DNA of 64,000 bases from a candidate division FCPU426 bacterium (GTDB taxonomy: Bacteria > Oederibacteriota > JAJYGY01 > DAIDJD01): assembly GCA_027451505.1 (NCBI GenBank), contig DAIDJD010000092.1:17588-81587 (forward strand), read 5' to 3'. Made by a program: the position numbers and the translations under genes. The notes under the pieces were generated by a model, which saw nothing but the letters and a program-made list of their open reading frames with translations, had not been told where the DNA came from and made no database searches. Positions 4,868 through 58,802 of the stretch are shown here, piece after piece (within the stretch, counting starts at the first letter, position 1; each line of letters begins with the position of its first letter).

Positions 4868-5980
4868 ATGACCCAAACCATCACCTCCATCGTCCCTGTG
4901 CCCCCCGCTTCGGCATCCCTTGGGGCCGAAGCGGGACTGCCCGTGTTGGGGCAGTCCCCGGGCATCAAGCGCGTGCTGAACCTGGCCCAAAAGGTGGCCC
5001 CCACGGACAGCCCCGTGCTCATCACCGGCGAGACCGGCACGGGCAAGGAATTGATCGCCCGGATCATCCACGCGGCCTCCCGACGGGCCAGGGGACCGTT
5101 CGTGGCGGTCAACGCCGGGGCCATCCCTGAGAATCTGCAGGAGAGCGAACTCTTCGGCCACCACAAGGGCGCCTTCACCGGGGCCGTGGCGGACCGCCGC
5201 GGCCTCTTCGAGGAGGCCGATGGCGGCACGTTGTTCCTCGACGAAATCGGCGACGCCAGCCCTGGGCTGCAGGTGAGGCTCCTGCGGGTCCTTCAGAACG
5301 GCAGCATCCGTCGTGTGGGTGAGAGCGTGGAGAGGCCGGTGGACGTTCGCTTGGTCGCCGCGACCAACCGGGTCCTGGAGCGCATGGCCGAACGAGGGGA
5401 GTTTAGGGAGGACCTGTTTTTCCGGCTCAACGTCGTGCACCTGCATCTGCCGCCGCTTCGGGAGCGGGGCGAGGACTTGGACCTCCTCCTGCGGGCCAAT
5501 CTGGCGCGGTTCGCCGAACGCCTGCGCAAGGAGGTGCGGGGATTCACCGCGGCGGCCTGGGACGCCCTGCGCGCCTACTTCTACCCCGGCAACATCCGCG
5601 AATTGGAGAACATCGTCCACCACGCCGTTCTCATGGCCGAGGGTCCCGAGGTGGAACTGTCCGACCTGCCGCCATACCTTAAGGCGAGGCTGGCCCTGCC
5701 CGCTCCGGAGCCGGGTCCCTGGAGGGAGGTCGCGCCTTTGGAGGTGCCCCGGGAGGCCTGGGGCAGGCCGGGTTCGCGTCCGGCCGCCTCCGAGTCCGCG
5801 TACGTGGCGCCCCACGTGGATCTGGGGGACGGCTTCCTGAGCATCTCGGACATGGAAAAGCAGCTCATCTCCGCCACCCTGGGAAGGCTCAAAGGGAACC
5901 AGAGCGTGGCCGCCCGGAAGCTGGGTGTGAGCCGTTCCACGCTGTGGCGCAAGATGAAGGAATATGGACTCCAGGCCTGA
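4868..5980 (+). CDS. sigma-54-dependent transcriptional activator (bacterial enhancer-binding protein) lacking an N-terminal sensory/receiver domain (PspF/HrpS-like architecture)
   Basis: AAA+ sigma-54 interaction domain with GETGTGKE Walker A, ESELFGHHKGAFTGA (GAFTGA loop), C-terminal Fis-type HTH QSVAARKLGVSRSTLWRKMKEYG; only about 40 aa precede the AAA+ core. Confidence 0.85.
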   Translation: MTQTITSIVPVPPASASLGAEAGLPVLGQSPGIKRVLNLAQKVAPTDSPVLITGETGTGKELIARIIHAASRRARGPFVAVNAGAIPENLQESELFGHHKGAFTGAVADRRGLFEEADGGTLFLDEIGDASPGLQVRLLRVLQNGSIRRVGESVERPVDVRLVAATNRVLERMAERGEFREDLFFRLNVVHLHLPPLRERGEDLDLLLRANLARFAERLRKEVRGFTAAAWDALRAYFYPGNIRELENIVHHAVLMAEGPEVELSDLPPYLKARLALPAPEPGPWREVAPLEVPREAWGRPGSRPAASESAYVAPHVDLGDGFLSISDMEKQLISATLGRLKGNQSVAARKLGVSRSTLWRKMKEYGLQA

Positions 5981-7229
5981 GGAAGGCATCGCCCGGGGAG
6001 GCCTGACCCTGGCCCGGGCCAGGGAAGCGCTCAAAGATTGGCAGGGCCATATGCGGCGGGGGGCCGCCTTGCCCAGCGAGGACGAATACGTCGCGGCTTT
6101 GGCCCTGGTGCCGTGGCTGCCCCAGCCCGGCGTCTATCTGGCCCGCACGCTGCGCGCCTTCGCCGATTTCTGTTCGGCCCAGGGCCGGCTGGACGACGCC
6201 GTTTCCCTTTTGGCGCGCATCGCCGAGGGGCCCGGGCGCAAGAGCGAGGTTTTCTGGCGCGACTACGCCGTGCTGCTGTTCCGCCAGGCGCTCAAGCGCC
6301 TGGCCGCCGGGAGGGTGGCCCAGTCCAATGAATCCCTGGGGCGGGCCGCGGCGCTGTTGAGGGGCCCGGCCGCCCTTCCCGAGGTCTGGAACGCGGCCTG
6401 GGAAGGCTATTCCGAAATGGCGCTTTGGTTCGAGCGCGCCGGCGATGCGCTTCCGGCGCGCCTGCACGCGGAACACGCGCTGGAGTACGCCCAGCGCTGC
6501 GGCCGCCGAGAAGAGGCCCTGGAGTGGCTTCGCCGCCTGGCCCAAGCGGCCCAGCACGGCAGGGGCGCCTTCGCCGCCTTGGACTGGCTGCGCCGCATGC
6601 ACGCCTTGGGGCGCGAAGGTTGGACAGGAGCCGGGGCATTCGCGGTGCGCAGCGCCGTGGGTTTGGCCCAGGCCGAGGCCGCCTTGGGACGGGAGGCGGG
6701 CATGGACGCCATCTTCCACGAGGTGGAGACTTGGCTGCGGGAGCCTCCGTCGGACCTCCTGGCCTTGGCCGATTTGAACTTGGCCTGGGGCCTGGTCTTG
6801 GGACTTGAACGGGGCCGGGAACGCCTCGAACAGGCCCATCGGTTGCGTTCCACCGCGTTGGGTGAAGACCATCCCAAGACCCTCGAAGCCTTCCGGGCCC
6901 TGGGAGGATGGCGCCAAGAGGACACTGGACCTTCCCCAGGGACGGACTCCGGCCCACGCGAATGGGACGGTGGCGCAAGATTCGAAGGACCCAAAGACTC
7001 CGGGGGGGAATCCCAGGAATCCGAATTGAAGCGACTCCATCGGCGTTTGGCGCGGCTTTGCCACCCGGACGCCGGGTTGGATGACGCATCCGAGAGCGAA
7101 ATCACTTGGCGCCACGAAACCATGATCCGGGTGAATCGGGCGGCCGAGTCCGGGAACCTATTTTTACTGCGCGCGCTGTTGGATGAGGCGCTTTCCAGGA
7201 TGGGCACCGGCAAACAAGTCCCGCTTTGA
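5964..7229 (+). CDS. hypothetical helical (TPR-like) protein with a C-terminal J-domain-like segment
   Basis: C-terminus LKRLHRRLARLCHPDAG...ITWRHETMIRVNRAAESGN resembles J-domain helices II-III with the HPD tripeptide; start overlaps the activator gene stop by 17 nt; GC falls in the last ~400 nt. Confidence 0.5.
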   Translation: MDSRPEEGIARGGLTLARAREALKDWQGHMRRGAALPSEDEYVAALALVPWLPQPGVYLARTLRAFADFCSAQGRLDDAVSLLARIAEGPGRKSEVFWRDYAVLLFRQALKRLAAGRVAQSNESLGRAAALLRGPAALPEVWNAAWEGYSEMALWFERAGDALPARLHAEHALEYAQRCGRREEALEWLRRLAQAAQHGRGAFAALDWLRRMHALGREGWTGAGAFAVRSAVGLAQAEAALGREAGMDAIFHEVETWLREPPSDLLALADLNLAWGLVLGLERGRERLEQAHRLRSTALGEDHPKTLEAFRALGGWRQEDTGPSPGTDSGPREWDGGARFEGPKDSGGESQESELKRLHRRLARLCHPDAGLDDASESEITWRHETMIRVNRAAESGNLFLLRALLDEALSRMGTGKQVPL

Positions 7230-7236
7230 GGTGAGC

Positions 7237-7632
7237 ATGGCTATCAAACCTTGGTCTTTGGGAACTCTGATTCGCTTGCGTTGCCCAGTGTGCGGCGAAG
7301 ACACGTTCAAAACCGGGTGGTTCCAAACGGCTTCGGCCTGTAGAGCCTGCGCCACGGTTTTTGAGGAAGAGGATGGGTTTTATGCTGGAGCGATCTATCC
7401 TATGTATGGAATGATCGCAGGGTTGGGAGCTTTGGGCATGCTCCTGGGATGGCTTTTGGGGCTTTCATTTGAAAAAAGCCTATTTATGGACGGATTTATT
7501 ATTATTTTGGCATCTCCGTGGCTTTTCCTGTATTCAAGAATACTTTTTTTGTATACCCATCATAGATTTTTCAAAAACTTCGATGGTCCTGCTGAGTCGG
7601 CAAGCGAGGTAAAGGTAAAAAGAGAAGGATAA
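7237..7632 (+). CDS. DUF983-family zinc-ribbon membrane protein
   Basis: CPVCGE...CRAC zinc ribbon followed by DGxxF and two hydrophobic helices, matching the DUF983 pattern; the 3' half is strongly AT-rich. Confidence 0.5.
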   Translation: MAIKPWSLGTLIRLRCPVCGEDTFKTGWFQTASACRACATVFEEEDGFYAGAIYPMYGMIAGLGALGMLLGWLLGLSFEKSLFMDGFIIILASPWLFLYSRILFLYTHHRFFKNFDGPAESASEVKVKREG

Positions 7633-7644
7633 GGGTGGGTGGCC

Positions 7645-7695
7645 GGGTTCAAGCGCGGCGATGGATGGTGCGCAGGGGTTCAAGGGGTTCTTGAA
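7645..7695 (+). promoter_or_regulatory. candidate enhancer (UAS): direct repeat GGGTTCAAG x2, and inverted repeat TTCAAG-gggtt-CTTGAA at 7679-7695
   Basis: repeats read directly; centred about 125 bp upstream of the sigma-54-type promoter at 7813-7828. Confidence 0.3.
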
Positions 7696-7812
7696 ATCCC
7701 GGGGGCGCATATCTTTTCGTTTTTAAACACTTCATTGCGGTTGTTTGATTTTAGATCCATCTTTGCTTCGAAATGAAATTAACAAAAATACATATAACCT
7801 TTTAAATATAAA

Positions 7813-7828
7813 CGGCACGGTCCTTGCG
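7813..7828 (+). promoter_or_regulatory. candidate sigma-54 (-24/-12) promoter CGGCACG-gtcc-TTGCG upstream of dnaK
   Basis: GG and GC dinucleotides separated by exactly 10 nt, with extended match to TGGCACG-N4-TTGCW; about 50 nt upstream of the dnaK start; preceded by an AT-rich tract. Confidence 0.4.
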
Positions 7829-7880
7829 TGATATCCAGGCATACCAGTTCCATTAAGGATTCGAAAGCGAGGCGACATTC

Positions 7881-9800
7881 ATGGGAAAAATCATCGGCAT
7901 TGATCTGGGGACCACCAATTCCTGCGTGGCCATCATGGAAGGCGGGGAACCCAAGGTCATCAACAATTCCGAAGGCAATAGGACCACTCCTTCGGTGGTG
8001 GGTTTCGCCAAGGACGGTTCCCGGCTGGTGGGCCAGGCCGCCAAGAGGCAGGCCGTCACCAATCCCGAGAATACCGTGTTCTCGGCCAAACGGTTCATCG
8101 GTCGGCGCTTCAACGAGGTCCAGGCCGAGGCCAAGCGCATGCCTTTCAAGGTGGTCGCCGCCGACAACGGGGACGCCGCCATCGAGATCAAGGACAAGCG
8201 CTACGCCCCCCCTGAGATCTCGGCCATGGTGCTGCAGAAGCTGAAGGCCGACGCCGAGGCCTACCTCGGGGAGCCCGTGACCCAGGCCGTGATCACCGTG
8301 CCGGCCTACTTCAACGACAGCCAGCGCCAGGCCACCAAGGACGCCGGAAAGATCGCCGGCCTCGAGGTCCTGCGCATCATCAACGAGCCCACCGCGGCGT
8401 CCCTGGCCTACGGCTTGGACAAGAAGGGCAAGAACGAAAAGATCGCGGTCTACGACCTGGGCGGGGGCACCTTCGACGTCTCCATCCTGGAGATCGGGGA
8501 TGGCGTCTTCGAGGTGCGCGCCACCAACGGGGACACGCACCTGGGCGGCGACGACTACGACGAGGTCGTGCTCGAGTGGCTGGCCTCCGAGTTCCAGAAG
8601 GCCGAGGGCATCGATCTGCGCAAGGACCGCATGGCCCTGCAACGCCTGAAGGAGGCCTCGGAAAAGGCCAAGATCGAGCTCTCCAGCGCCGCCTCCACGG
8701 ACATCAACTTGCCGTTCATCACCGCCGACGCCACCGGGCCCAAGCACCTCAACGTGAGCCTGAGCAGGGCCAAGCTGGAGCAGTTGGTCGCGGGGCTGAC
8801 CGACCGCACCAAGGGCCCCTGCCAGCAGGCCCTCAAGGACGCCGGCCTTTCGGCCTCGGAGATCGACGAGGTGGTGCTGGTGGGCGGCATGACGCGCATG
8901 CCCAGCGTGGTGCAATACGTCAAGGAGCTCTTCGGCAAGCAGCCCCACCAGGGGGTGAACCCCGACGAAGTGGTGGCCGTGGGCGCCGCCATCCAGGCCG
9001 GCGTGCTCAAGGGCGAGGTCAAGGACGTGCTGCTGCTGGACGTCACCCCGTTGAGCCTGGGCATCGAAACCGAGGGTCGGGTGTTCACGAAACTGATCGA
9101 GCGCAACACCACGGTGCCGACCCGCAAGAGCCAGGTCTTCAGCACGGCCAGCGATAGCCAGCCCTCGGTGGAGGTGCATGTGCTGCAGGGCGAGCGCCCC
9201 ATGGCCTCGGACAACAAGACCATAGGACGCTTCCACCTCGACGGGATCCCGCCCGCGCCCCGGGGCGTACCCCAGATCGAGGTGACCTTCGACATCGACG
9301 CCAACGGCATCCTGGCGGTGAGCGCCAAGGACCTGGGCACGGGCAAGGAGCAGAAGATCACCATCACCGCCAGCTCCGGGCTCGCCAAAGACGAGGTGGA
9401 GCGCCTCGTCCAGGAGGCCAAGGCGCACGAGGCGGAGGACAAGAAGCGCCGTGAGGCGGCCGAGGTCCGCAACCACGCCGAGAGTCTGGCCCATTCCGTC
9501 GAGAAGACGCTCAAGGACCTCGGCGACAAGGTTCCCGAGGATAAGCGCAAGGACCTGGAGGCCCAGGCCGCCGCGCTGCGCGAGGAGCTCAAGAACGAGT
9601 CCGACGCGGAGGCGCTCAAGCGCAAGGCCGACGCGTTGGCGGAGGCCATGGCGGCGGTCTCCGAGGAGTTGTACAAGAACGCCAAGCCCGAAGCCGCTCC
9701 CGGCGGCCCGGATGGCGGGCCGGCCCAAGCCGGCGCCGCGGCCGGGGCCAAGACCGTCGACGCGGATTTCGAGGTCGTGGACGAGAAGAAAAAGGACTGA
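7881..9800 (+). CDS. dnaK: molecular chaperone DnaK (Hsp70)
   Basis: [25 protein letters not shown], full Hsp70 ATPase and substrate-binding domains; RBS GAGG upstream. Confidence 0.97.
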
Positions 9801-9833
9801 ACACCATCACCGCAGCAAGGAGGAACAACACGT

Positions 9834-10124
9834 ATGAAACTGCGTCCGCTCAACGATAAGATCGTGGTCAAGCCGATCGAGGCCGAGGAAACCGTGAAGG
9901 GGGGCATCATCATCCCCGACAACGCCAAGGAGAAGCCCCAGCAGGCCGAGGTGGTCGCCGTCGGCCCCGGAAAGCTCCTTGAAAACGGCAACCGGGTCGT
10001 CCCCGGGGTCAAGCCGGGGGAACGGGTGCTTTACTCCAAGTACAGCGGCAGCGAGTTCAAGGTCGGCGGCGACGAGCTTCTGGTCCTGGACGAGGGCGAC
10101 ATCCTGGCCGTCGTCGAGAAGTAG
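9834..10124 (+). CDS. groES: co-chaperonin GroES
   Basis: 96 aa, [13 protein letters not shown]...GGIIIPD canonical Hsp10; only 33 nt after dnaK. Confidence 0.95.
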
Positions 10125-11843
<1,719 letters not shown>

Positions 11844-11852
11844 GAGTCCCCT

Positions 11853-11891
11853 GGGGGACCCGCCGGATTGCCGGCGGGTCCCCTTCATTTT
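11853..11891 (+). terminator. rho-independent terminator after groEL
   Basis: perfect 13-bp stem GGGGACCCGCCGG / CCGGCGGGTCCCC with ATTG loop, followed by TTCATTTT. Confidence 0.8.
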
Positions 11892-11903
11892 CCACCCCGT
11901 CCG

Positions 11904-11930
11904 GGAACTTTCCCGGGCGGGTCGTGCGTC
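11904..11930 (+). promoter_or_regulatory. candidate ECF (sigma-E-like) promoter GGAACTT-N16-CGTC upstream of the ABC/GldG/CbpA/HtrA gene set
   Basis: motif read directly; GGAAC -35 is typical of group-4 sigma promoters; downstream cluster ends with htrA, a classic envelope-stress gene. Confidence 0.25.
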
Positions 11931-12041
11931 CGGTGGGTTGGGATTCGTACGTGACGTCTTGCGCCCGGCGACCGGGCCTTCCGGACCCGGGCGCCGCCAA
12001 GGCCCGCCCGGAGCCGACTACCACGCGGGGGTTTCCTGCTT

Positions 12042-13022
12042 ATGATCGAAGTCAGCGGTCTGACCAAGGAATACGGCGCCTTCAAGGCCGTCAAGGGCGT
12101 CAGCTTTTCGGTGGAGCGCGGCCAGATCCTGGGCTTCCTGGGGCCCAATGGGGCGGGGAAGAGCACGGTGATGAAGATCCTCACCTGCTACCTGCCGGCC
12201 ACCTCGGGACGGGCCGGCGTCGCCGGCTTCGACTGCGAACTGCAGGCCCGTGAGGTGCGCAAGCGCATAGGCTACCTGCCCGAGAACAACCCGCTTTACC
12301 TGGATATGCGCGTCGGCGAATACCTGGACTTCGCGGCCCACGCCAAGGGGATCGCGGGGCCGTCCCGCAGGGCCGCCGTGGCCCGGGTCTGCGAGGAGAC
12401 CGGTCTGGGGTCCGTCACGGGACGCCTCATCGGGCAGCTCTCGAAGGGCTTCCGCCAGCGCGTGGGCCTCGCCCAGGCCCTGGTGGGTGATCCCGAAGTG
12501 CTCATCCTGGACGAGCCCACCGTGGGCCTGGATCCCCGGCAGATCCTTGAGATACGCAACCTCATCCGTTCCATGGCGGGGCGCCGCACCGTCGTGCTGT
12601 CCACCCACATCCTCCCCGAGGTCAGCGCGGTCTGCGACCGCGTGGTGATCATCAACAAAGGCTTGGTGGTGGAGCAGGACAGCACCGCCAACCTCGGCCG
12701 CAAACTGGCCAAAAGCGACCGGGTCCAGGTGGGCGTCGCCGGCCCCGGCGAGGAGGCCCGGATCCTGTTGGGCGGGCTTCCCGGGGTCCAGCGGGCCCAG
12801 GTGCGCTCCGAAAGCGAAGGCGTCGCGGTGCTTGAGGTGGAGAGCACCAAGGGGACGGACCTCAGGGCGGACATAGCCCGGGCTGTGGTGTCCAAGGGTT
12901 GGGGCTTGGTCGAGCTCAAGGCCTTGGGGCTGGGCCTCGAGGAGGTCTTCCTTCAATTGGTCACCCAGGACAGCGAACACGCGGCCGCGGAGACGGCCGC
13001 GGTCACGGAGGCGGCGGCATGA
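12042..13022 (+). CDS. ABC transporter ATP-binding protein (ABC-2 subfamily)
   Basis: Walker A GPNGAGKST, signature LSKGFRQR, Walker B LILDEPTVGLD. Confidence 0.85.
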   Translation: MIEVSGLTKEYGAFKAVKGVSFSVERGQILGFLGPNGAGKSTVMKILTCYLPATSGRAGVAGFDCELQAREVRKRIGYLPENNPLYLDMRVGEYLDFAAHAKGIAGPSRRAAVARVCEETGLGSVTGRLIGQLSKGFRQRVGLAQALVGDPEVLILDEPTVGLDPRQILEIRNLIRSMAGRRTVVLSTHILPEVSAVCDRVVIINKGLVVEQDSTANLGRKLAKSDRVQVGVAGPGEEARILLGGLPGVQRAQVRSESEGVAVLEVESTKGTDLRADIARAVVSKGWGLVELKALGLGLEEVFLQLVTQDSEHAAAETAAVTEAAA

Positions 13023-13780
13023 CCACGAACCTTTACCCCATCTACCGGCGCGAGACCCGCGCCCTTTTCCTTTCCCCGGTGGCGTGGATCGTGCTGTTCG
13101 CGTTCTACTCCTTGGCCGGTTTTTTCTGGGTGGCCCCGCTGTCGCAGTACGCCTTCTATTCCGTCATGATGGCGGAACGCGGCCAGGTGATGAAGCTGGT
13201 GGACTACCTGATCGCCCCGTTCCTGGGGAACGTCACGGTCACCTTCATCTTCCTCCTGCCCCTGGTGAGCATGCGCCAGTTCAGCGAGGAGAAGAAGTCG
13301 GGGACCATTGAAACCCTCTTCACCTATCCCTTCAGCGACCTCGACATCGTCCTGGGCAAGTGGTTGGCGGCCGTCACGCTCCTGGGCGTGATGCTCCTGC
13401 CGCTGCTGATGGATTTCGGCTTGATCGCGGACAAGGTGGCCGTTCCCTGGCCCGTGGTGGCCACGGGGATGGCGGGGGTCTTCATGGTGGGCGCCTGCTA
13501 CTTGGCCGTGGGCCTGTTCACTTCGGCCCTGACGGAGAACCAGGTGGTCGCGGCGGCCCTGAGTTTCGGGGCCCTGCTGCTGCTGTTCGTGCTCAACTGG
13601 CTGGCCGCCTCGGCCAGCGGGTCGTTGCACGACCTCATCGGGCAGCTGTCGATCACCACCCACATGCAGGACCTCACCAAGGGGTTGCTCGCGCTCAAGG
13701 ACGTCACCTACTTCATCCTTTTCACCGCGTTCATGCTCTTCTGCACCCTGAGGGTGCTCGAGAGCAAGAAGTGGAGGTAA
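13019..13780 (+). CDS. ABC-2 type transporter permease
   Basis: about 250 aa, six predicted hydrophobic helices; ATGA overlap with the ATPase gene. Confidence 0.65.
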   Translation: MTTNLYPIYRRETRALFLSPVAWIVLFAFYSLAGFFWVAPLSQYAFYSVMMAERGQVMKLVDYLIAPFLGNVTVTFIFLLPLVSMRQFSEEKKSGTIETLFTYPFSDLDIVLGKWLAAVTLLGVMLLPLLMDFGLIADKVAVPWPVVATGMAGVFMVGACYLAVGLFTSALTENQVVAAALSFGALLLLFVLNWLAASASGSLHDLIGQLSITTHMQDLTKGLLALKDVTYFILFTAFMLFCTLRVLESKKWR

Positions 13781-13782
13781 GC

Positions 13783-15354
13783 GTGCGCCGGGAATACGCC
13801 AAGGCGGCCGGCTGGACCGCCCTCATCGCCCTCGCCTCCGCGGGCGTCACCTACGCCGTGCGGGGGATCGCGGACCTTTGGTTGTGGCTGCCCCTCGGCC
13901 TGGGCGTCGCGCTGGCGGCGGTCTGGGCGGCGGCCCTGGGTAGGGAAGCCTTCCAGGTGGTCTCCTCCCGGCGGGCGCGCCAGGGGGGACAAAGCCTGGT
14001 GTACGCGGCGGCCGTCCTGACCATCGTGCTCGTGCTGCAGTCCCTCGCCGTCAACAGTTCGGTGAGCGTCGACTTGACCAAGGACAAGGCCTTCACCCTC
14101 TCCGAGCAGACGGTCAAGACGGTGAAGGGGCTCACCCAGAAGGTGGAGTTCCTGGCCTTCTACGGGGCCAGCGCGCCCGGGCGCCCGGCCTTCGAGGATC
14201 TCCTGAAGCGCGTGCGCGCGCTGAATCCGGCCCGGGTCGGCTATGACTTCGTGGATCCGGTGCGCAAACCCCTGGAGGCCCAGGAGTACGGGGTCCGTGA
14301 GCAGGGGACCACGGTGGTGGTGTGCGGAGACCGCAAGGAGACCCTGACCGGATCGCAGGAGGAGGACCTGCTCAACGCCCTGCTCAAGGTCAGCGCGGGC
14401 CAGACCGAGAACGTCTACTTCCTCGCCGGCCACCAGGAGGCCGATCTGGGCGATTCCTCGGCCCAGGGCCTTTCCGGACTGAAGACCGCCCTGGAGTCCG
14501 ACTCCTTCCAGGCGAGCACGCTGAATCTCGCCACCGCGCCGGGCGGGGTGGTGCCCGAGGACGCCGCCGTCGTCGTCCTGGCGGGCCCCCGGACGGACCT
14601 CATGGAACCCGAGCTCAAAGCGCTCACCGATTTCCTGGGGCGCGGCGGCCGGATCTTCGTGGCTTTGGACCCGCGCGCCGAGGTGCCCAGGTTGCGGGCT
14701 TGGCTGGCCAAGGCGGGCATCGTCTTCGACAACGACATCGTCATCGACATGAACCCCTTCAGCCAGCTTTTCGGCGCCTCGCCGGTGGCCCCCATCGTCA
14801 ACTCCTTCGACGGCACCAATCCCGCGACCAAGGACCTTTCCCAGCAGCATGGGCAGGCCCTCTTCCCCCAGACCTCCGGCTTCAGCGAGGGAACCCTTCC
14901 GCCGCAGGCGGCCTACACGGAACTGGCCCGGACCCTGCCGACGGCCTTCGGCTGGACGGGCAAGGGCGACCGCGCGCCCACCCATCCGGGGCCCCGCGAC
15001 AAACGCGGGCCGGTGGCGGTCATGGTGTCGCTGCAGGCCCCGGTCAAGGACTTTGGGGGGGCGCCCAACGCGCCGGCGGACGAGAACGCGCGGCTGGTCG
15101 CGATGGGAAGCAGCGTGCCCCTGCAGAACCGGGCCGTGGGCGCCTTCAACAACCAGGACTTGATCGTCAACAGCCTGCGTTGGCTTTCCGACCAGGACAA
15201 GCGCATCGCCCTGGCCCCCAAGCCCGTGGACAACCAGCCCCTGTACCTGAACCAGGCCCGGGCCCGCCTCATCCACTGGAGCGTGGTCCTCCTGGCCCTC
15301 GGCGCGCTCGCCGCGGGCGTGGCCGTGTCTTTGGCGCGCCGGAGGTCGGCATGA
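13783..15354 (+). CDS. GldG-like ABC transporter auxiliary component
   Basis: N- and C-terminal transmembrane anchors flanking a large periplasmic domain; gene order ATPase-permease-GldG-like; GTG start 2 nt after the permease stop. Confidence 0.6.
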   Translation: MRREYAKAAGWTALIALASAGVTYAVRGIADLWLWLPLGLGVALAAVWAAALGREAFQVVSSRRARQGGQSLVYAAAVLTIVLVLQSLAVNSSVSVDLTKDKAFTLSEQTVKTVKGLTQKVEFLAFYGASAPGRPAFEDLLKRVRALNPARVGYDFVDPVRKPLEAQEYGVREQGTTVVVCGDRKETLTGSQEEDLLNALLKVSAGQTENVYFLAGHQEADLGDSSAQGLSGLKTALESDSFQASTLNLATAPGGVVPEDAAVVVLAGPRTDLMEPELKALTDFLGRGGRIFVALDPRAEVPRLRAWLAKAGIVFDNDIVIDMNPFSQLFGASPVAPIVNSFDGTNPATKDLSQQHGQALFPQTSGFSEGTLPPQAAYTELARTLPTAFGWTGKGDRAPTHPGPRDKRGPVAVMVSLQAPVKDFGGAPNAPADENARLVAMGSSVPLQNRAVGAFNNQDLIVNSLRWLSDQDKRIALAPKPVDNQPLYLNQARARLIHWSVVLLALGALAAGVAVSLARRRSA

Positions 15355-16712
15355 AGGAGGGGAGCCGGACCCTGGTCGCCTTGGGGGCGGCCCTCGCGTT
15401 GGGGACGGGCTATTGGGTTTGGGCCGTGAAGATCCAGCCCCGGCGGGCCCAGGAGGCCGAGGACGCCAAGCTCCTGTTCAAGGGCCTCAACCCCGCAGGA
15501 ACCTCGGAGATCCTCCTGCGCAAGGCGGGCTATCCGGACGTGCTCCTGCGCAAGGTCCAGGGACAGTGGCGCCTGGTCACCCCGGTGGCCGCCCCGGCCG
15601 ATCCGGCCGCCGTGGGGGGCATCCTGACCCAACTGGAGCAGGCCAAACGCGGCGAGGTGGTTTCCGGACCGGGCACTACGCTGCGGGACTTCGGCCTGGA
15701 CCATCCCCGGGGGGCGGTGACCTTCAGCCCGGACACGCCCGGCGCCAAGGCCCAGGTCCTGTATTTCGGCATCGACAGCCCCCTCGGCGGCCAGACCTAC
15801 GCCGAGGTGGAGGGCCGTCCTGGGGTGTTCCTCACCGACCTCTACGTCAAGGACGCGATCCTCAAGGACGCGGGCCAGTTGCGGGACAAGACCGTGTGGA
15901 GCTTCCAGAGGGACGATGTCGTTTCCGTGCGGTCCGGGATCTCGGGGTTCACCCTGGAGCGGAACAAGGACGGCTTCTGGAGGGTGGTCGCCGGGGCGCG
16001 GAACGAGCCGGCCAAGCCAGACCAGGTGCAGCAGTGGTTGGACGTCCTTTCCAGCCTGCGCGCCGATTCGGTGCCCAGCGAGACCGGACGCGGGAAGTTC
16101 GGCCTGAAGGCGCGCGCGCGCTCGCTCACGGTCACCCTCAAGGGCGGCCAGGAGATGGTCCTGCGTGAGGGCTCCGAAGCCAAGCCCGGACCCGGATTCT
16201 ACGTCCAAGTGGCCGGCCAGGGGCCGGTGTACCAGCTCCCCGAGTACCAGAAGGCCCAGATCGAGAAGAAGGCCGACGGCCTGATGGACCTGGATGCCTT
16301 CGGTTTCGACACCTCCTCGGTGGGACGCTTCACCGTGGCCCGGCCCGGGCGCAAGACCCTCACGGCGGTGCGGGCGGACGGGGTGTGGGGCTGGGTCCCC
16401 GCGGCCCCTCCCAAGCCCGGCGTCCGTGCCTTCGACTTCCCCGGGTTCCTGGCTTCGCTGGCCCACACCCAGGTCCTGGGGCGCCTTCCGGACGCGGACA
16501 GGCCGGCCCACCCCGTGGCCACGGTCACCCTCTACGGGGATACGGGTGGGGTCCTGGAGACGGTTGAATTCGGGACGCGACGTGGCCCGGGGCAGGTGGC
16601 GACGAGCGCGACCAAGCACCAGGTGGTGGTGGTGCCCGTGAACCTTCTGGACGGGCTGCCCCAGCACGCCCCATCGGCGACCCCGGCTTTGACGCCGACG
16701 GCCGCGCGCTAA
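15351..16712 (+). CDS. DUF4340-like protein that commonly follows GldG-type genes
   Basis: N-terminal signal/anchor, then soluble domain; ATGA overlap with the upstream gene. Confidence 0.45.
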   Translation: MKEGSRTLVALGAALALGTGYWVWAVKIQPRRAQEAEDAKLLFKGLNPAGTSEILLRKAGYPDVLLRKVQGQWRLVTPVAAPADPAAVGGILTQLEQAKRGEVVSGPGTTLRDFGLDHPRGAVTFSPDTPGAKAQVLYFGIDSPLGGQTYAEVEGRPGVFLTDLYVKDAILKDAGQLRDKTVWSFQRDDVVSVRSGISGFTLERNKDGFWRVVAGARNEPAKPDQVQQWLDVLSSLRADSVPSETGRGKFGLKARARSLTVTLKGGQEMVLREGSEAKPGPGFYVQVAGQGPVYQLPEYQKAQIEKKADGLMDLDAFGFDTSSVGRFTVARPGRKTLTAVRADGVWGWVPAAPPKPGVRAFDFPGFLASLAHTQVLGRLPDADRPAHPVATVTLYGDTGGVLETVEFGTRRGPGQVATSATKHQVVVVPVNLLDGLPQHAPSATPALTPTAAR

Positions 16713-16724
16713 AGGGGGGACGCC

Positions 16725-17606
16725 GTGGCGGGGGGGGTGGCCGATCTCTACGCGGCGTTGGGCGTCCCCGAATCCGCCTCGGCCGAGGAGATCAAGAGGG
16801 CCTACCGGGCCCTGGCCAAGCGGTGGCACCCCGACGCCAACCCCGGCGACCGGGGTGCGGAGGAGCGCTTCAAGCAGATCGGCCAGGCCTACGAGATCCT
16901 GTCCGACCCCGACAAGCGGCGCCGCTACGACGCCCTGCGCCGTTCCCCGGTTCCCGAACCGGAGACCGGGGCGCCCCCTTGGGCCTCCTCCGGAGGGGCG
17001 GCCGCCTGGGGAGGCTCCGCCAGCGTGGAGGATTTGTTCTCCATGTTTTTCGGCTCCGGGGAGGCCGGGCCGGGGCCCTTCGGGGTGCCGGACCAGGGAG
17101 GGGACTTCGACAGCGAAGTCTGGGTCTCCTTCGAGGACGCGGCCCTCGGGAATCCGGTGACGGTGCGCCTGGAGGGAAGGCCCCAGCCGCTGAAGCTCAA
17201 CCTGCCGCCCGGAGCGGAAAGCGGGCTGCGGATGAGGCTCGCGGGCCAAGGGGCGCCCCGGCGGCGCGGGCGGCGGGGCGACCTCTTTCTCACGCTCAAG
17301 GTGCGCCCCTCGGAGCGTTTCAGCCGCAGGGGCCTGGACATCCACGGATTCGTGGAGGTGAACCTCGCGCAGGCCCTGTTGGGCGCGCGGGTCCAAGCCC
17401 CCACCCTGCGGGGAAGCGCGCGCGTCGGGGTGCCCGCCGGGACCCAGCCCGGGACCCTGCTGCGCCTTGCGGGCCAGGGCATCGAGGCCGAGGGCCGGCG
17501 GGGAGACCATTTTGTTGAGGTGCGGGTGAAGCTGCCCACCGACCTCGACGAGCCGGAAAAAGCGGCGATCTTGGGCATGGCCCGTCGCCGCGGCTGGGCG
17601 CTTTGA
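16725..17606 (+). CDS. DnaJ-class co-chaperone without zinc-finger domain (CbpA-like)
   Basis: J domain DLYAALGV...[13 protein letters not shown]...[14 protein letters not shown], Gly-rich linker, DnaJ C-terminal domains, no CxxCxGxG repeats. Confidence 0.8.
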
Positions 17607-17620
17607 GGAGAGGGTACGCC

Positions 17621-19006
17621 ATGAAGCTCCGATATGCACTGCTTCCCGCGTTGCTGCTCGGGGCGCCGCTGCGGGCCTCCTCGGTCGCCGGCCTCCCGAA
17701 CTTCCGCGACGTGGCCCGCAGGATCCGCCCGGCCGTGGTCAACCTTTCGGTGGTCAAGGACGTGTCCGAGGACCAGCAGGACCCCTTCGCCGGGCAGTTT
17801 TTCGGGCGGTTTTTCGGCCAGCAGGGCGGTCCCCAGCAGTGGTTCCAGCAGCGCAGCCTGGGCTCGGGGGTGATCATCGACGCCAAGCGCGGCTACATCC
17901 TCACCAACAACCACGTCGTCGAGGGCGCGGACGCGATCACCGTCAAATTCGCCGACAAGCGCGAGGCCAAGGGCACCGTGGTGGGGCGGGACCCCAAGAC
18001 GGACCTCGCGGTCGTGCAGGTCAAGGGCATGCATGGACTCGCCCAGGCCTCCTTCGGCGACAGCGACAAGGTTGAGGTGGGCGACTGGGTCCTGGCGGTG
18101 GGTTCGCCCTTCGGCCTGGAGCAGACGGTCAGCCATGGCATCATTTCGGCGAAGGGGCGGGTCATCGGTGAGGGCCCCTACGACGACTTCCTGCAGACGG
18201 ACGCCCCCATCAACCCGGGCAACAGCGGGGGGCCCTTGGTGGACATGGACGGCGACGTCATCGGCATCAACACGGCCATCACCACCCAGAGCGGCGGAAG
18301 CGAGGGGGTGGGCTTCGCCATCCCCAGCGACATGGCCCGCGGCATCTACCGGCAGATCGTGGAGCACGGCAAGGTCACCCGAGCCTGGCTGGGGGTCAGC
18401 ATCCAGGACCTCGATCCCGCCCTGGCCGCCCGCTTCGGCCTTCCGGCGGACTCCCCGGGGGTCCTCATCGCAGACGTGATGCCCAAAGGGCCCGCGCACG
18501 ACGCCGGCATCCGCCCCGGGGACGTCGTCCTCGCGTTCAACGGGAAGGCCATGGCGGACTCCCGGCAGCTCCAGAGGAATGTGGCCGGGGCGCCGGTGGG
18601 CCAGCGCGCGAGCCTCAAGATCTGGCGCGATGGTTCGGCGCGGAGCGTTTCCGTTGTTTTGGGGGACATGACCCAAAGCGATGCCGGCGGCGCCCAGGAC
18701 GCGGACGAGGAGCCCATCACCAGCCCCAAGTTGGGCGTGGATGTGCGGCCCCTGACCCCGGACGAGGCCAAGGGACATGGCGCAGGCGGCGTGGTCGTGA
18801 CCCGCGTGGACAGCGGCTCCGCGGCCGACAACGCCGGGCTCCAACCCGGGGACGTCATCCTGGAGCTGGGCAAGGACAGGGTGGCTGGAACGGACCAGTT
18901 TTCGTCCTTGGTGGCCGCCCTGAAGGCGGGATCCAGCGTGGTGGTGCGCGTCCGTCGTGACGGACGGAGCTTCTACGCGGCGCTGCAGGTACCCGGGGGC
19001 CAGTAG
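17621..19006 (+). CDS. htrA: periplasmic serine endoprotease HtrA/DegP/DegQ with two PDZ domains
   Basis: catalytic triad context (HVVEGA, DLAVV, GNSGGPL), two PDZ segments; signal peptide; RBS GAGGAGAGGG. Confidence 0.9.
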   Translation: MKLRYALLPALLLGAPLRASSVAGLPNFRDVARRIRPAVVNLSVVKDVSEDQQDPFAGQFFGRFFGQQGGPQQWFQQRSLGSGVIIDAKRGYILTNNHVVEGADAITVKFADKREAKGTVVGRDPKTDLAVVQVKGMHGLAQASFGDSDKVEVGDWVLAVGSPFGLEQTVSHGIISAKGRVIGEGPYDDFLQTDAPINPGNSGGPLVDMDGDVIGINTAITTQSGGSEGVGFAIPSDMARGIYRQIVEHGKVTRAWLGVSIQDLDPALAARFGLPADSPGVLIADVMPKGPAHDAGIRPGDVVLAFNGKAMADSRQLQRNVAGAPVGQRASLKIWRDGSARSVSVVLGDMTQSDAGGAQDADEEPITSPKLGVDVRPLTPDEAKGHGAGGVVVTRVDSGSAADNAGLQPGDVILELGKDRVAGTDQFSSLVAALKAGSSVVVRVRRDGRSFYAALQVPGGQ

Positions 19007-19026
19007 GTCGGGACGGTTTCCCCAAA

Positions 19027-19056
19027 GGCCGGCCCCCCCGGGCCGGCCTTTTTTTT
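19027..19056 (+). terminator. rho-independent terminator after htrA
   Basis: stem GGCCGGCCC / GGGCCGGCC with CCCC loop, followed by TTTTTTTT. Confidence 0.85.
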
Positions 19057-19154
19057 GCTCCACCAAGCCCGTCGGCAGACAAATCACCCCCCCGGCACGC
19101 TCCTTCTTGCAGGACCATCGCCCGCTCCGGGCGCGGAGCCGCCCCCGGCAGGAC

Positions 19155-19793
19155 ATGGACCAGGGCCCACACCGAACCTTCGACGAGAGCTTCAACGCGT
19201 GGTTCGCGGGCGCGCGGCCGAGGCTTCTGCGACTCGCCTTAAGCAGGGTGCGGGACCGGGCCCTGGCCGAGGACGTGGTCCAGGACACGGCGTTGGCCCT
19301 TTGGCGGCGCCTCGCCAAAGGCGGGGTCCGCGACCTGGATTCCTACGCCGATCGGGCCGTCTGGATCAACTCGATCCGGGGGGCCTCCCGGCGGCGCGTC
19401 GATCTGCCCTTGGACGGGGCCGGGGAAGGGGACATGCCGGCGGTGCCGCCCGAAGTCGAGGAGTGGCTCGAGGCCGCCGAATGGGAGGAGGCCTTGGCGG
19501 GCCTGCCGCTGCCCCAGGCCGCCGCGTTGCGCCTGCGGTTTTACGCGGACATGACCTACGCCGAAATGGCCCGGAACCTGTCCGTGGGGCTCAACACCGC
19601 CGCCAGCCGTACCCGCTACGCCCTCACCGCGCTGCGCAAGATCCTTTCGGCCCGCGATGCCCCCCCCGCCGGCCGACGGCCCCGTGCCGCCCCGAAGGGG
19701 GATCCACTGGAGGAACGCCATGCAGATCAACGTCGAAGCCGAACGCCCCGCGCCGGGGCGCAACCGAGGCGGGGCCCCGGGCGGCCCCTTTGA
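19155..19793 (+). CDS. ECF-type RNA polymerase sigma factor (sigma-70 family regions 2 and 4)
   Basis: region 2 AEDVVQDTALALW, region 4 HTH AALRLRFYADMTYAEMARNL...TRYAL. Confidence 0.75.
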   Translation: MDQGPHRTFDESFNAWFAGARPRLLRLALSRVRDRALAEDVVQDTALALWRRLAKGGVRDLDSYADRAVWINSIRGASRRRVDLPLDGAGEGDMPAVPPEVEEWLEAAEWEEALAGLPLPQAAALRLRFYADMTYAEMARNLSVGLNTAASRTRYALTALRKILSARDAPPAGRRPRAAPKGDPLEERHADQRRSRTPRAGAQPRRGPGRPL

Positions 19794-20214
19794 GGCCGAT
19801 GCGTCCCGTACGGACCGGACGGCGATGAGTTTCGGAGGGGGCCGGGTGGCCGTCGCCGGCATCGTCGGCGGCTTCGGCATCGCGGTGGGCGGTTCCGCGG
19901 TGCTCCTGGGGCTGGGGCAGTCCCTGGGGCCGGCCGTGCTGACCGTGTTGGTGGTGTTGGCCTTGGTCGGCGGCGGTTTGGTGTGCCTGGTCTCGGCGTT
20001 CTTCGGCCTGGTCATCCCGCGCCACCTGGGCCAGGGGCCGTGGATGGACCCGGAGAAATGGCGGCGGTTCGCCCTGGAGCGGCGTTTATGGCATGAGCGC
20101 CATGGCGCGGGCGCCTGGGGGCCCTGGTATGGGGCCCGCAGGGAGGAACCCGTCGGGGAGGGGGACGCCCCGGGGAAAAGTCGGCGGCGCCGCGGAGAGT
20201 CCGTGCGCTCCTGA
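19720..20214 (+). CDS. hypothetical Gly-rich membrane protein downstream of, and overlapping, the ECF sigma gene (possible anti-sigma partner)
   Basis: RBS GGAGGAA then ATG; two hydrophobic segments; overlaps the sigma gene 3' end by about 74 nt; no recognisable anti-sigma domain. Confidence 0.35.
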   Translation: MQINVEAERPAPGRNRGGAPGGPFEADASRTDRTAMSFGGGRVAVAGIVGGFGIAVGGSAVLLGLGQSLGPAVLTVLVVLALVGGGLVCLVSAFFGLVIPRHLGQGPWMDPEKWRRFALERRLWHERHGAGAWGPWYGARREEPVGEGDAPGKSRRRRGESVRS

Positions 20215-57656: not shown

Positions 57657-57688
57657 GCCCTTCGCTCGCCCGCGCCGGCGGCACCCAA

Positions 57689-57770
57689 TTGACAGTGCCC
57701 GGGTTCCCGTGGTAGTTTCGCTTAGGGAAAAATCAATAAAATCAAGGCTTTTCATAAAAGTCGGGAACCC
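57689..57770 (+). promoter_or_regulatory. candidate internal promoter (TTGACA-N18-TAGTTT) flanked by 9-bp inverted repeat GGGTTCCCG...CGGGAACCC around an AT-rich tract upstream of hpf
   Basis: TTGACA at 57689-57694; IR arms at 57701-57709 and 57762-57770. Confidence 0.25.
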
Positions 57771-57783
57771 ACGGGGAGGCGCC

Positions 57784-58323: not shown

Positions 58324-58333
58324 GGAGGCGGGA

Positions 58334-58798: not shown

Positions 58799-58802
58799 CC
58801 GC

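What the first reader, a model, noticed from the sequence alone, without database searches (positions are those of the whole stretch)
11904..19056. ABC-2 / GldG-like / DUF4340 transporter genes coupled to a CbpA-like J-protein and HtrA, behind an ECF-like GGAACTT promoter
Six genes run head-to-tail with overlapping start/stop codons, from the ATPase to htrA. They are bounded by the groEL terminator and a strong terminator after htrA. This links an envelope-associated ABC export apparatus with a cytoplasmic J-domain co-chaperone and the periplasmic protease/chaperone HtrA. A GGAACTT-N16-CGTC motif typical of extracytoplasmic-function sigma promoters precedes the cluster. An ECF sigma gene follows at 19155. 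Together these suggest an envelope-stress module.
Basis: partly seen in the sequence, partly recalled or inferred. Interest (0 to 1): 0.6.

Follow-up and report, generated by a model that had tools for sequence, protein, structure and literature searches.

The report
ECF-promoter stress operon: transporter, J-protein, HtrA
In an uncultured, high-GC bacterial lineage, a membrane transporter of unknown function is kept next to a cytoplasmic co-chaperone and a periplasmic protease behind a conserved stress-type promoter, which gives the transporter family a testable link to envelope stress but is a new arrangement of known parts rather than a new kind of system.

Summary
Six + strand genes lie at 12042-19006: a GldA-like ATPase, a GldF-like ABC-2 permease, a GldG-like protein, a DUF4340 protein, a class-B J-protein and a Do/HtrA protease. 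They are packed tightly (two ATGA overlaps; gaps of 2, 12 and 14 nt) between two strong hairpin terminators.

GGAAC-N18-CGTC at 11904-11930 is not significant in this window alone (6 matches, 5.05 expected). However, GGAAC-N16-18-CGT[C/T/A] sits at the same place, just after the groEL terminator, in 10 of 11 related loci. It is in 0 of 63 transporter loci from other phyla.

Within the clade, dnaK-groES-groEL-ABC-ABC2-GldG-DUF4340-J-HtrA keeps its order down to 44% J-protein identity. Several relatives carry extra promoters of the same type before htrA or the J gene, so the genes behave as one regulon.

The ECF sigma at 19155 is real. It is absent from 5 of 12 related loci and has a different upstream motif, so its role as the driver is unproven.

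Upstream, dnaK-groESL has a conserved sigma-54 promoter.

Verdict: a lineage-specific ECF-type stress module, and a new variant of a known kind.

The parts
11853..11884 (+). groEL terminator hairpin (14-bp stem, followed by TCATTTTCC)
   Evidence: An equivalent hairpin plus T-run follows groEL in L003-L009, L088 and L089.
11896..11921 (+). Second GC-rich hairpin that encloses the -35 GGAAC element
   Evidence: Window: -23.6 kcal/mol, z = -4.9. L001, L004, L088 and L089 have equivalent hairpins (z -3.8 to -7.1) whose arms differ in sequence but stay paired. L005, L006 and L009 have none. Function unexplained.
11904..11930 (+). ECF-type promoter candidate: GGAAC (-35), 18 nt, CGTC (-10), 138 nt before the ABC start codon
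   Evidence: Present in the window. Conserved at the orthologous position in 10 of 11 clade loci, with a per-locus chance of 0.003-0.006. Absent upstream of 63 out-clade homologues.
12042..13022 (+). ABC ATPase, GldA-like
   Evidence: PF00005. TIGR03522 GldA 312 bits, below the 402.6 cut-off. Nearest solved relatives are the ABCA1/ABCA4 nucleotide-binding domains (E 1e-58) and NosF.
13019..13780 (+). ABC-2 permease, GldF-like, about six transmembrane segments
   Evidence: PF12679. TIGR03518 132.7 bits, below the 288.5 cut-off. Hydropathy profile. ATGA overlap with the ATPase gene.
13783..15354 (+). GldG-like accessory protein: N-terminal and C-terminal membrane segments with a large periplasmic part (DUF7088 + ABC_transp_aux/GIFT domain)
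   Evidence: (IFT52 GIFT domain, E 6e-7).
15351..16712 (+). DUF4340 protein: one N-terminal membrane helix, then repeated beta/alpha modules
   Evidence: PF14238, E 1.4e-37. AlphaFold2 model with pLDDT 88. No PDB fold match at E <= 0.001. ATGA overlap with the GldG-like gene.
16725..17606 (+). Class-B (CbpA-like) J-protein: HPD motif, G/F-rich region, DnaJ_C, no zinc finger, no signal peptide
17621..19006 (+). Do/HtrA serine protease: signal peptide, His-Asp-Ser motifs (TNNHVV, TDLAVV, GNSGGPL), two PDZ domains
   Evidence: (TIGR02037 485 bits, cut-off 416.2).
19024..19051 (+). Strong intrinsic terminator after htrA (12-bp stem, T8)
19155..19793 (+). ECF-type sigma factor: possible but unproven regulator
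   Evidence: Sigma70_r2 and Sigma70_r4. TIGR02937 45.2 bits, cut-off 42.9. Adjacent to htrA in 7 of 12 clade loci.
19825..20214 (+). Conserved small two-transmembrane protein that always accompanies the sigma gene (candidate anti-sigma; no family match)
   Evidence: Homologous ORFs follow the sigma gene in L003, L004, L006, L088 and L089. No Pfam or NCBIfam hit.
7881..11843 (+). Conserved upstream block: dnaK (7881-9800), groES (9834-10124), groEL (10194-11843)
7813..7828 (+). Sigma-54-type promoter before dnaK (cGGCAC-N5-TTGC)
   Evidence: TGGCA[C/A/T]-N5-TTGC is conserved before dnaK in L001, L003, L004, L005, L009, L088 and L089.

Best explanation
This is a lineage-specific stress regulon read from ECF-sigma-type promoters (GGAAC-N16-18-CGTC/T).

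In this genome a single promoter at 11904-11930 transcribes six genes as one unit, ending at the terminator at 19024-19051. The unit sits just downstream of the groEL terminator and is insulated from it.

On induction the cell would make three things together:
- A type-V (ABC-2) ATP-driven exporter or mechanotransducer. Its periplasmic parts, the GldG-like and DUF4340 proteins, are anchored in the inner membrane.
- A cytoplasmic class-B J-protein that recruits DnaK, which is encoded just upstream.
- A secreted HtrA protease/chaperone.

Shown here:
- the gene content and predicted topology;
- the tight packing of the genes;
- conservation of the gene order;
- conservation of the promoter motif, and its duplication in front of htrA or J in relatives.

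Inferred, not shown:
- that the motif is an active promoter;
- that an ECF sigma reads it, whether the neighbour at 19155 or another;
- that the signal is envelope or heat stress;
- that the transporter acts on an envelope component, probably a lipid or lipid-linked molecule or a periplasmic client, rather than only being co-expressed.
For: - Gene identities and topology.
- Packing and flanking terminators.
- The order ABC-ABC2-GldG-DUF4340-J(-HtrA), preceded by dnaK-groES-groEL, is found in L001, L003, L004, L005, L006, L088 and L089, and partly in L007-L009, L087, L095 and two loci known only from gene tables. This holds down to 44% J-protein identity and 29% DUF4340 identity.
- The promoter motif is conserved in otherwise unalignable spacers, at a chance of 0.3-0.6% per locus.
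- The motif is absent upstream of 63 out-clade homologues.
- A second motif of the same type lies in the J-htrA spacer of L001, L003, L004, L087, L088, L089 and L095. In L006 one lies before J, after a terminator. Co-regulation is therefore kept even where the operon is split.
- It is established knowledge (Helmann; Staron et al. 2009) that ECF promoters carry AAC in the -35 and CGT in the -10. E. coli sigma-E (GGAACTT-N16-TCAAA) drives degP/htrA.
- An ECF-type sigma with a conserved membrane partner lies next to htrA in 7 of 12 loci.
Against: - There is no transcript data.
- In the window alone the motif is at chance frequency.
- The window's spacing (18 nt from GGAAC to CGTC) is 1-2 nt longer than in relatives.
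- In the five closest loci the GGAAC sits in the loop of a strong hairpin. This could mean the sequence is kept for a structural reason.
- The adjacent sigma gene has no GGAAC motif upstream. It has a conserved (T/C)AGACA-N17-GATCAT-like motif instead, and it is missing in 5 loci that keep the promoter.
- The link between the transporter and J/HtrA is confined to one clade. None of 80 GldG loci from other phyla (54 with at least 5 kb held downstream) has J, HtrA, DnaK or GroEL in the flanks held. This argues against an obligate mechanistic partnership.
Confidence: 0.62

Rival explanations
1. Conserved synteny without a shared function. The J-protein is simply DnaK's co-chaperone and a leftover of an ancestral dnaK...dnaJ heat-shock cluster. 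htrA and groESL were gathered into the same 'proteostasis island'. The ABC-2/GldG/DUF4340 transporter is an unrelated passenger that happens to sit between them.
For: - Outgroup J-proteins (40-42% identical) sit in classical chaperone contexts: grpE-dnaK-J-MerR in L094, J-MerR_2 (CbpM-like) in L096, and hsp20-J-MerR in L097.
- The transporter core occurs without any chaperone or protease neighbour in 80 loci from other phyla.
- One clade member keeps J but has no htrA next to it.
Against: - The order is kept across deep divergence within the clade (DUF4340 only 29% identical).
- Spacing is tight: 1-12 nt between DUF4340 and J in the window, L005, L095 and the P0050 locus.
- Where the unit is split, each piece has the same promoter type. 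This is what selection for co-expression predicts, and it is not expected of a passive passenger.
Confidence: 0.2
2. One nine-gene heat-shock operon. Transcription starts at the sigma-54 promoter before dnaK and reads through the hairpins after groEL. The GGAAC...CGTC motif is not a promoter; it is part of the terminator/attenuator hairpin region.
For: - All nine genes are co-directional and always adjacent.
- In the window, L001, L004, L088 and L089 the GGAAC forms the loop and closing pair of a very stable hairpin.
- L001 has no separate terminator hairpin before it.
Against: - L003, L005, L006, L007, L008 and L009 keep GGAAC and CGT[C/T] at a 16-nt spacing (N20 in the error-prone long-read contig L003) with no hairpin around them.
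- The -10 CGT lies outside the hairpin and is also conserved.
- Further copies of the motif precede htrA or J, where there is no groEL terminator.
- Most loci have a canonical hairpin plus T-run right after groEL.
Confidence: 0.1
3. A gliding-motility GldAFG transporter, as the best family names suggest.
For: The best NCBIfam hits are GldA, GldF and GldG.
Against: - All three score far below the equivalog cut-offs: 312 against 402.6, 132.7 against 288.5, and 40.8 against 389.9.
- The same four-gene core is found in Paenibacillus, Chloroflexota, Cyanobacteria, Terriglobia and Myxococcota.
- No other gld or type IX secretion genes were seen in the parts of the window that were annotated.
Confidence: 0.03

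Closest known systems
E. coli sigma-E (RpoE) envelope-stress regulon with degP/htrA
   Same: The promoter has GGAAC(TT) in the -35 at a similar spacing. A periplasmic Do/HtrA protease is a target. A membrane-linked partner gene lies next to the sigma gene. Cytoplasmic chaperone capacity is raised by the same response (in E. coli through rpoH P3).
   Different: The -10 is CGTC/CGTT, the type seen with Bacillus sigma-W/M or alphaproteobacterial EcfG, and not TCAAA. htrA is co-transcribed or co-regulated with an ABC-2/GldG/DUF4340 transporter and a J-protein. No RseA/RseB-type anti-sigma was recognised. No autoregulatory GGAAC lies before the sigma gene. Sigma dependence was not tested.
Flavobacterium johnsoniae GldA/GldF/GldG gliding-associated ABC transporter
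   Same: The architecture is the same: ATPase, ABC-2 permease, and a large accessory protein with a GIFT domain. These are the best family hits.
   Different: Scores are well below the equivalog cut-offs. An extra DUF4340 subunit is present. The context is chaperone/protease rather than gliding, and the phylum is different. The substrate is unknown in both systems (literature survey).
CbpA-CbpM (E. coli) and the actinobacterial dnaK-dnaJ-hspR operon
   Same: It is a class-B J-protein with J domain, G/F region and C-terminal substrate-binding domains, and no zinc finger. The nearest outgroup homologues are followed by a MerR_2 (CbpM/HspR-like) gene.
   Different: There is no CbpM/HspR partner here; htrA follows instead. 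The CbpA equivalog score is 136.8 against a cut-off of 403. The gene sits behind an ECF-type promoter, not a sigma-S or HspR-controlled one.
Type-V ABC systems with large extracytoplasmic parts (ABCA lipid exporters; NosDFY)
   Same: The ATPase's closest solved relatives are the ABCA1/4/3/7 nucleotide-binding domains, followed by NosF. It combines a six-helix ABC-2 permease with a large periplasmic accessory protein.
   Different: The periplasmic parts are separate proteins (GldG-like, DUF4340). The DUF4340 model has no solved fold relative, and the permease has no solved sequence relative. Any substrate analogy is inference only.

Membership tests
ECF-sigma-dependent promoter | -35 with GGAAC/AAC and -10 with CGT, 16-18 nt apart, upstream of the first gene | tested here: met
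   11904-11930. The same pattern occurs in 10 of 11 clade loci.
ECF-sigma-dependent promoter | Occurrence beyond chance | tested here: met
   Not significant within the window alone (6 found, 5.05 expected). Conserved at the orthologous site with a per-locus chance of 0.003-0.006, and 0 of 63 out-clade controls have it.
ECF-sigma-dependent promoter | Transcription start a few nt after the -10, and dependence on a specific ECF sigma | not testable with these tools
   Needs 5'-end mapping, in vitro transcription or a two-plasmid reporter assay.
ECF sigma / anti-sigma pair (gene at 19155) | Sigma70 regions 2 and 4 only; passes the ECF superfamily model | tested here: met
   PF04542, PF04545 and PF08281. 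TIGR02937 45.2 bits against a cut-off of 42.9, a narrow pass.
ECF sigma / anti-sigma pair (gene at 19155) | Co-transcribed anti-sigma with a recognisable anti-sigma domain | tested here: inconclusive
   A conserved two-transmembrane protein always follows the sigma gene, but it matches no anti-sigma family.
ECF sigma / anti-sigma pair (gene at 19155) | Autoregulation from the same promoter motif as its targets | tested here: not met
   No GGAAC...CGT lies upstream of the sigma gene. A different conserved motif, (T/C)AGACA-N17-GATCAT-like, is there instead.
GldA/GldF/GldG gliding ABC transporter (TIGR03522/03518/03521) | Scores at or above the equivalog cut-offs | tested here: not met
   312.2 against 402.6; 132.7 against 288.5; 40.8 against 389.85.
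ABC-2 / ABC_transp_aux / DUF4340 four-gene transporter module | ATPase, ABC-2 permease, PF09822 protein and PF14238 protein in this order | tested here: met
   The same core is found in Terriglobia and other Acidobacteriota and in Myxococcota; in the Chloroflexota, cyanobacterial and Paenibacillus loci the ATPase-permease-GldG part was detected without a DUF4340 hit.
CbpA (NF007618) with CbpM | Equivalog score and an adjacent cbpM (MerR_2) gene | tested here: not met
   136.8 bits against a cut-off of 403. The downstream gene is htrA. Outgroup homologues do have MerR_2.
Class-B J-domain protein | J domain with HPD, G/F region, DnaJ_C, no zinc-finger domain | tested here: met
Do/HtrA family (TIGR02037) | Score above cut-off, His-Asp-Ser motifs, two PDZ domains, signal peptide | tested here: met
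   485 bits against a cut-off of 416.2. Sequence motifs. PDZ domains.
Single operon of six genes | Same strand, short or overlapping junctions, Shine-Dalgarno sequences, no strong internal terminator | tested here: met
Single operon of six genes | One continuous transcript | not testable with these tools
   Relatives carry extra promoters before htrA or J. Operon structure therefore varies within the clade.

The most novel reading that the evidence does not exclude
The GldA/GldF/GldG-like/DUF4340 machine is itself an envelope quality-control device. It would use ATP to extract or export a damaged or mislocalised envelope component (lipid-linked material or a stalled membrane or secretory protein). 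It would work in a relay with DnaK and the J-protein on the cytoplasmic side and with HtrA on the periplasmic side. If so, this widespread four-gene module, of unknown function since the gld genes were found, would be a stress-repair system in general.
Probability: 0.12. Interest if true: 0.75.

Novelty: new variant of a known kind. Interest (0 to 1): 0.45.

Why it matters
The GldG-like (ABC_transp_aux/DUF7088) and DUF4340 proteins belong to an ABC module found across many phyla, and no substrate or role is known for it. Only four papers in the library mention DUF4340 at all.

Here a whole uncultured clade, whose only named relative is a candidate division FCPU426 genome, keeps this module under the same ECF-type promoter as a J-protein and HtrA, next to dnaK-groESL. 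That gives a concrete hypothesis that can be tested: the module is stress-induced and helps maintain the envelope.

It also shows a compact two-sigma layout of the proteostasis genes: sigma-54 for dnaK-groESL and an ECF-type promoter for the rest. This layout is unlike the sigma-32, HrcA or HspR schemes of model bacteria.

Tried and rejected
- Motif significance in the window alone: rejected. 6 matches against 5.05 expected. The other five window matches lie in coding sequence or on the non-coding strand (for example inside ptsN at 58555).
- Other GGAAC matches in L001 and L004 (inside a LigT-like gene): explained by coding-sequence conservation.
- Rfam scan of the whole window at gathering thresholds: no RNA family.
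The GldG alignment was used instead.
- Metagenome scan with DUF4340: only 3 useful loci.
- Organism name: the exact protein look-ups carry no names.
- A sigma-54 reading of 'TGGCACGGGAAC' in L006 and L007: rejected, because no TTGC follows at the -12 position.
- Gliding-motility assignment: rejected on family cut-offs.
- Literature searches found no report of this gene arrangement and nothing on sigma-54 control of dnaK-groESL in such a lineage.

Full report
**What is in the window**

The region is about 70% G+C, and almost every gene with high third-position GC lies on the + strand. From 7.8 kb to 20.2 kb the + strand reads as follows:

| Feature | Coordinates |
|---|---|
| dnaK | 7881-9800 |
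| groES | 9834-10124 |
| groEL | 10194-11843 |
| 14-bp hairpin terminator | 11853-11884 |
| ABC ATPase | 12042-13022 |
| ABC-2 permease | 13019-13780 |
| GldG-like protein (DUF7088 + ABC_transp_aux/GIFT) | 13783-15354 |
| DUF4340 protein | 15351-16712 |
| J-protein | 16725-17606 |
| Do/HtrA protease | 17621-19006 |
| 12-bp hairpin with T8 | 19024-19051 |
| ECF-type sigma factor | 19155-19793 |
| Small two-transmembrane protein | 19825-20214 |

- The sigma, DUF4340 and J products as I delimit them are identical to proteins already called on a 92.9-kb NCBI contig.
- Two junctions are ATGA overlaps. The other three are gaps of 2, 12 and 14 nt, each with a GGAGG-like ribosome-binding site.
- By hydropathy the permease has about six membrane segments. 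The GldG-like protein has N- and C-terminal membrane segments around a roughly 400-residue periplasmic part. DUF4340 has one N-terminal anchor, HtrA has a signal peptide, and the J-protein has neither.
- The J-protein has HPD, a G/F-rich stretch and DnaJ_C but no zinc finger. HtrA has the His, Asp and Ser motifs and two PDZ domains.
The one inaccuracy is that only two of the five junctions really overlap.

**The promoter motif**

GGAAC at 11904, followed 18 nt later by CGTC (that is, GGAACTT-N16-CGTC), is present. In this window it means nothing statistically: the pattern GGAAC-N16-18-CGTH occurs six times against 5.05 +/- 2.05 expected. The other copies are in coding sequence or on the empty strand. 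The test that matters is conservation.

**Related loci**

The J-protein has a clade of about 50 metagenomic relatives at 44-69% identity. I fetched neighbourhoods for several of them. I then scanned species-representative genomes with a GldG alignment and metagenomes with a DUF4340 alignment.

- By tblastn with the window's proteins, L001, L003, L004, L005, L006, L088 and L089 all carry dnaK-groES-groEL-ABC-ABC2-GldG-DUF4340-J-HtrA in the same order.
- L007, L008, L009, L087 and L095, and two loci seen only as gene tables, carry the parts of the array that their contigs reach.
- DUF4340 is followed by J in 12 of 12 loci. J is followed by HtrA in 11 of 12; the exception is the P0050 locus. groEL precedes the ATPase gene wherever that side is visible.
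- This holds down to 44% J, 39-42% GldG and 29% DUF4340 identity.
- The only named relative is L009, 'candidate division FCPU426 bacterium' (GroEL 88% identical). The lineage is probably that candidate phylum or a neighbour, but this is not established.

Outside the clade the core ABC-ABC2-GldG(-DUF4340) is common. It occurs in Terriglobia, Chloroflexota, Nodosilinea-type cyanobacteria, Myxococcota, Paenibacillus and others. However, none of 80 such loci has a J-protein, HtrA, DnaK or GroEL in the flanks (54 have at least 5 kb downstream and 59 at least 5 kb upstream).

**Conservation of the motif**

- In all eleven clade loci that include the groEL-ABC spacer, a GGAAC lies 38-96 nt after the groEL stop and 67-138 nt before the ATPase start.
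- It is followed by CGTC, CGTT or CGTA after 16 nt (L005-L009), 17 nt (L001, L004, L088) or 18 nt (window, L089). L003, a frameshift-ridden long-read contig, has 20 nt.
- The rest of the spacer cannot be aligned between the subgroups.
- Shuffling each spacer gives a match in 0.3-0.6% of trials. Even counting near-duplicate loci (L005/L008, L006/L007) once, the joint probability is negligible.
- As a negative control, none of 63 out-clade GldA-like genes has the pattern in the 250 nt upstream.
- Conserved AAC in the -35 and CGT in the -10 is the textbook signature of ECF-sigma promoters (my knowledge: Helmann 2002; Staron et al. 2009). Examples are E. coli sigma-E GGAACTT-N16-TCAAA, B. subtilis sigma-W TGAAAC-N16-CGTA and EcfG GGAAC-N16/17-CGTT. 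The point that several ECF sigmas can share one promoter is made in PMC6767563.

**More promoters of the same kind inside the cluster**

- In L001, L003 and L004 the last J codons (Trp-Glu-Leu, TGG GAA CTn) form a GGAAC that is followed at 16-17 nt by CGTC or CGTA.
- L088 and L095 have GGAAC-N17-CGT[C/T] in the J-htrA spacer, and L087 and L089 have GAAAC-N17-CGTC there.
- In L006 a GGAAC-N17-CGTC lies about 50 nt before the J start (25 nt after the motif's end), after a terminator-like hairpin. L005 has one in the 3' end of DUF4340.
- In the window the corresponding codons read TGG GCG CTT and the spacer has shrunk to 14 nt. Here htrA has lost its own promoter and depends on the one at 11904.
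- The conserved entity is therefore a regulon whose operon boundaries drift.

**The neighbouring sigma**

- It passes the ECF superfamily model narrowly, and no subfamily model reaches its cut-off.
- It is always followed by a conserved small protein with two membrane helices and a basic tail (...VCLVSAFFGLV[M/I]PRHL..GPWMDP[E/D]KWRRF...). This protein has no family match.
- The pair lies between htrA and a GNAT gene in the window, L003, L004, L006, L088, L089 and the P0034 locus.
- It is absent in L001, L005, L087, L095 and the P0050 locus. L001, L005, L087 and L095 still carry GGAAC-type promoters; no DNA was held for the P0050 locus.
- The sigma gene is preceded by a conserved (T/C)AGACA-N17-GATCAT-like motif and not by GGAAC...CGT.
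- Adjacency therefore makes it a candidate regulator, but nothing here shows that it reads the promoter. I put that at roughly even odds.

**An unexplained hairpin**

- In the five closest loci (window, L001, L004, L088, L089) the -35 sits at the tip of a 10-14-bp GC-rich hairpin, immediately after the T-run of the groEL terminator.
- In four of the five the loop is GGAA closed by G-C; in the window the register is shifted by about 1.5 nt.
- The arms differ completely in sequence but remain complementary.
- Folding energies are -19 to -32 kcal/mol, with z-scores of -3.8 to -7.1. The more distant loci have no such structure.
- This raises the rival reading that GGAAC is kept as a hairpin loop. 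That reading fails for the six loci without a hairpin, for the conserved CGT outside the hairpin, and for the copies before htrA and J.
- I cannot tell what the hairpin does. It could be a second insulator against read-through, or it could modulate the promoter.

**How the module probably works**

- The ATPase's nearest solved relatives are the nucleotide-binding domains of the ABCA lipid exporters, followed by NosF. The permease is of the ABC-2 (type V) kind. The GldG-like protein carries a GIFT domain like IFT52.
- The DUF4340 model is confident (pLDDT 88): a membrane helix followed by repeated beta/alpha modules, with no solved fold relative.
- By analogy, the four proteins form an inner-membrane ATP-driven machine with a large periplasmic superstructure. 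It would act on a lipid-like envelope component or do mechanical work in the periplasm.
- Co-expression adds DnaK-recruiting capacity in the cytoplasm (J) and protein clearance in the periplasm (HtrA).
- Every step beyond co-regulation is inference.
- A weak independent hint: a DUF4340 gene rises together with clpB and hspA under CO2 stress in Synechococcus PCC 7002 (PMC12789804). A DUF4340 protein is also scored as essential in Verrucomicrobium (PMC12283558).

**Comparison with known systems, and novelty**

- It works like the sigma-E/degP envelope-stress paradigm. It is not a member of the GldAFG equivalogs (all three fall below cut-off).
- It is not CbpA-CbpM either. It is below the cut-off and has no CbpM, whereas outgroup homologues at 40-42% identity do have a MerR_2 partner or sit in grpE-dnaK-J-MerR operons.
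- I found no paper describing this arrangement.
- It is a new, lineage-restricted combination of known parts under a known type of control. Its main value is as a functional lead for two poorly understood protein families.

Noticed in passing
window 7640-7880 (promoter 7813-7828); L001, L003, L004, L005, L009, L088, L089 upstream of dnaK: dnaK-groES-groEL is preceded by a conserved sigma-54-type promoter. It reads TGGCA[C/A/T]-N5-TTGC[A/T] in relatives and cGGCAC-N5-TTGC in the window. It lies about 45-65 nt before the dnaK start, after an AT-rich stretch. Sigma-54 control of the main chaperone operon is unusual.
   Followed up: partly
window 4868-5980, 5964-7229, 7183-7632: Three genes lie directly upstream of the sigma-54 promoter. 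The first is a sigma-54 activator with no N-terminal sensor domain (the AAA+ domain starts at residue 27, as in PspF). The second is a TPR protein whose C-terminus resembles J-domain helix II plus HPD ('LKRLHRRLARLCHPD', pairwise E 3e-5). The third is a small membrane protein. This suggests DnaK-titration feedback on the activator. The P0050 locus also has an activator right before dnaK.
   Followed up: partly
window 11896-11921; L001 5209-5240; L004 5013-5044; L088 6600-6631; L089 6523-6556: A strong hairpin with covarying arms encloses the -35 GGAAC, but only in the five closest loci (z -3.8 to -7.1). Its purpose is unknown.
   Followed up: partly
window 17595-17623 versus the J-htrA spacers of L001, L003, L004, L087, L088, L089, L095: Relatives have a second ECF-type promoter before htrA, in three cases built from the last three J codons (W-E-L). 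The window has lost it (TGG GCG CTT; spacer only 14 nt).
   Followed up: yes
window 19076-19113 and 19825-20214; L003, L004, L006, L088, L089: The sigma gene has its own conserved upstream motif, (T/C)AGACA-N17-GATCAT-like. It always travels with a conserved two-transmembrane protein of no known family. The pair behaves as an insertable cassette between htrA and a GNAT gene.
   Followed up: partly
window 56124-60071: An rpoN cluster: rpoN (sigma-54; TIGR02395 387 bits, cut-off 277), hpf, a ptsN-like ORF (assigned from its sequence by eye, not tested) and a CofD-like gene. The organism therefore has the sigma factor needed for the dnaK promoter.
   Followed up: partly
window 15351-16712: The DUF4340 protein gives a confident AlphaFold2 model (pLDDT 88, pTM 0.75): one membrane helix plus repeated beta/alpha modules. 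It has no significant match among solved structures.
   Followed up: partly
L094, L096, L097: The nearest J-protein homologues outside the clade (40-42% identity) are each followed by a MerR_2/MerR gene (CbpM or HspR type). The clade has therefore swapped that partner for htrA.
   Followed up: yes
window 1-64000: Nearly all ORFs with coding-like composition are on the + strand, and cumulative GC skew rises steadily across the window. This is consistent with one long leading-strand stretch.
   Followed up: no
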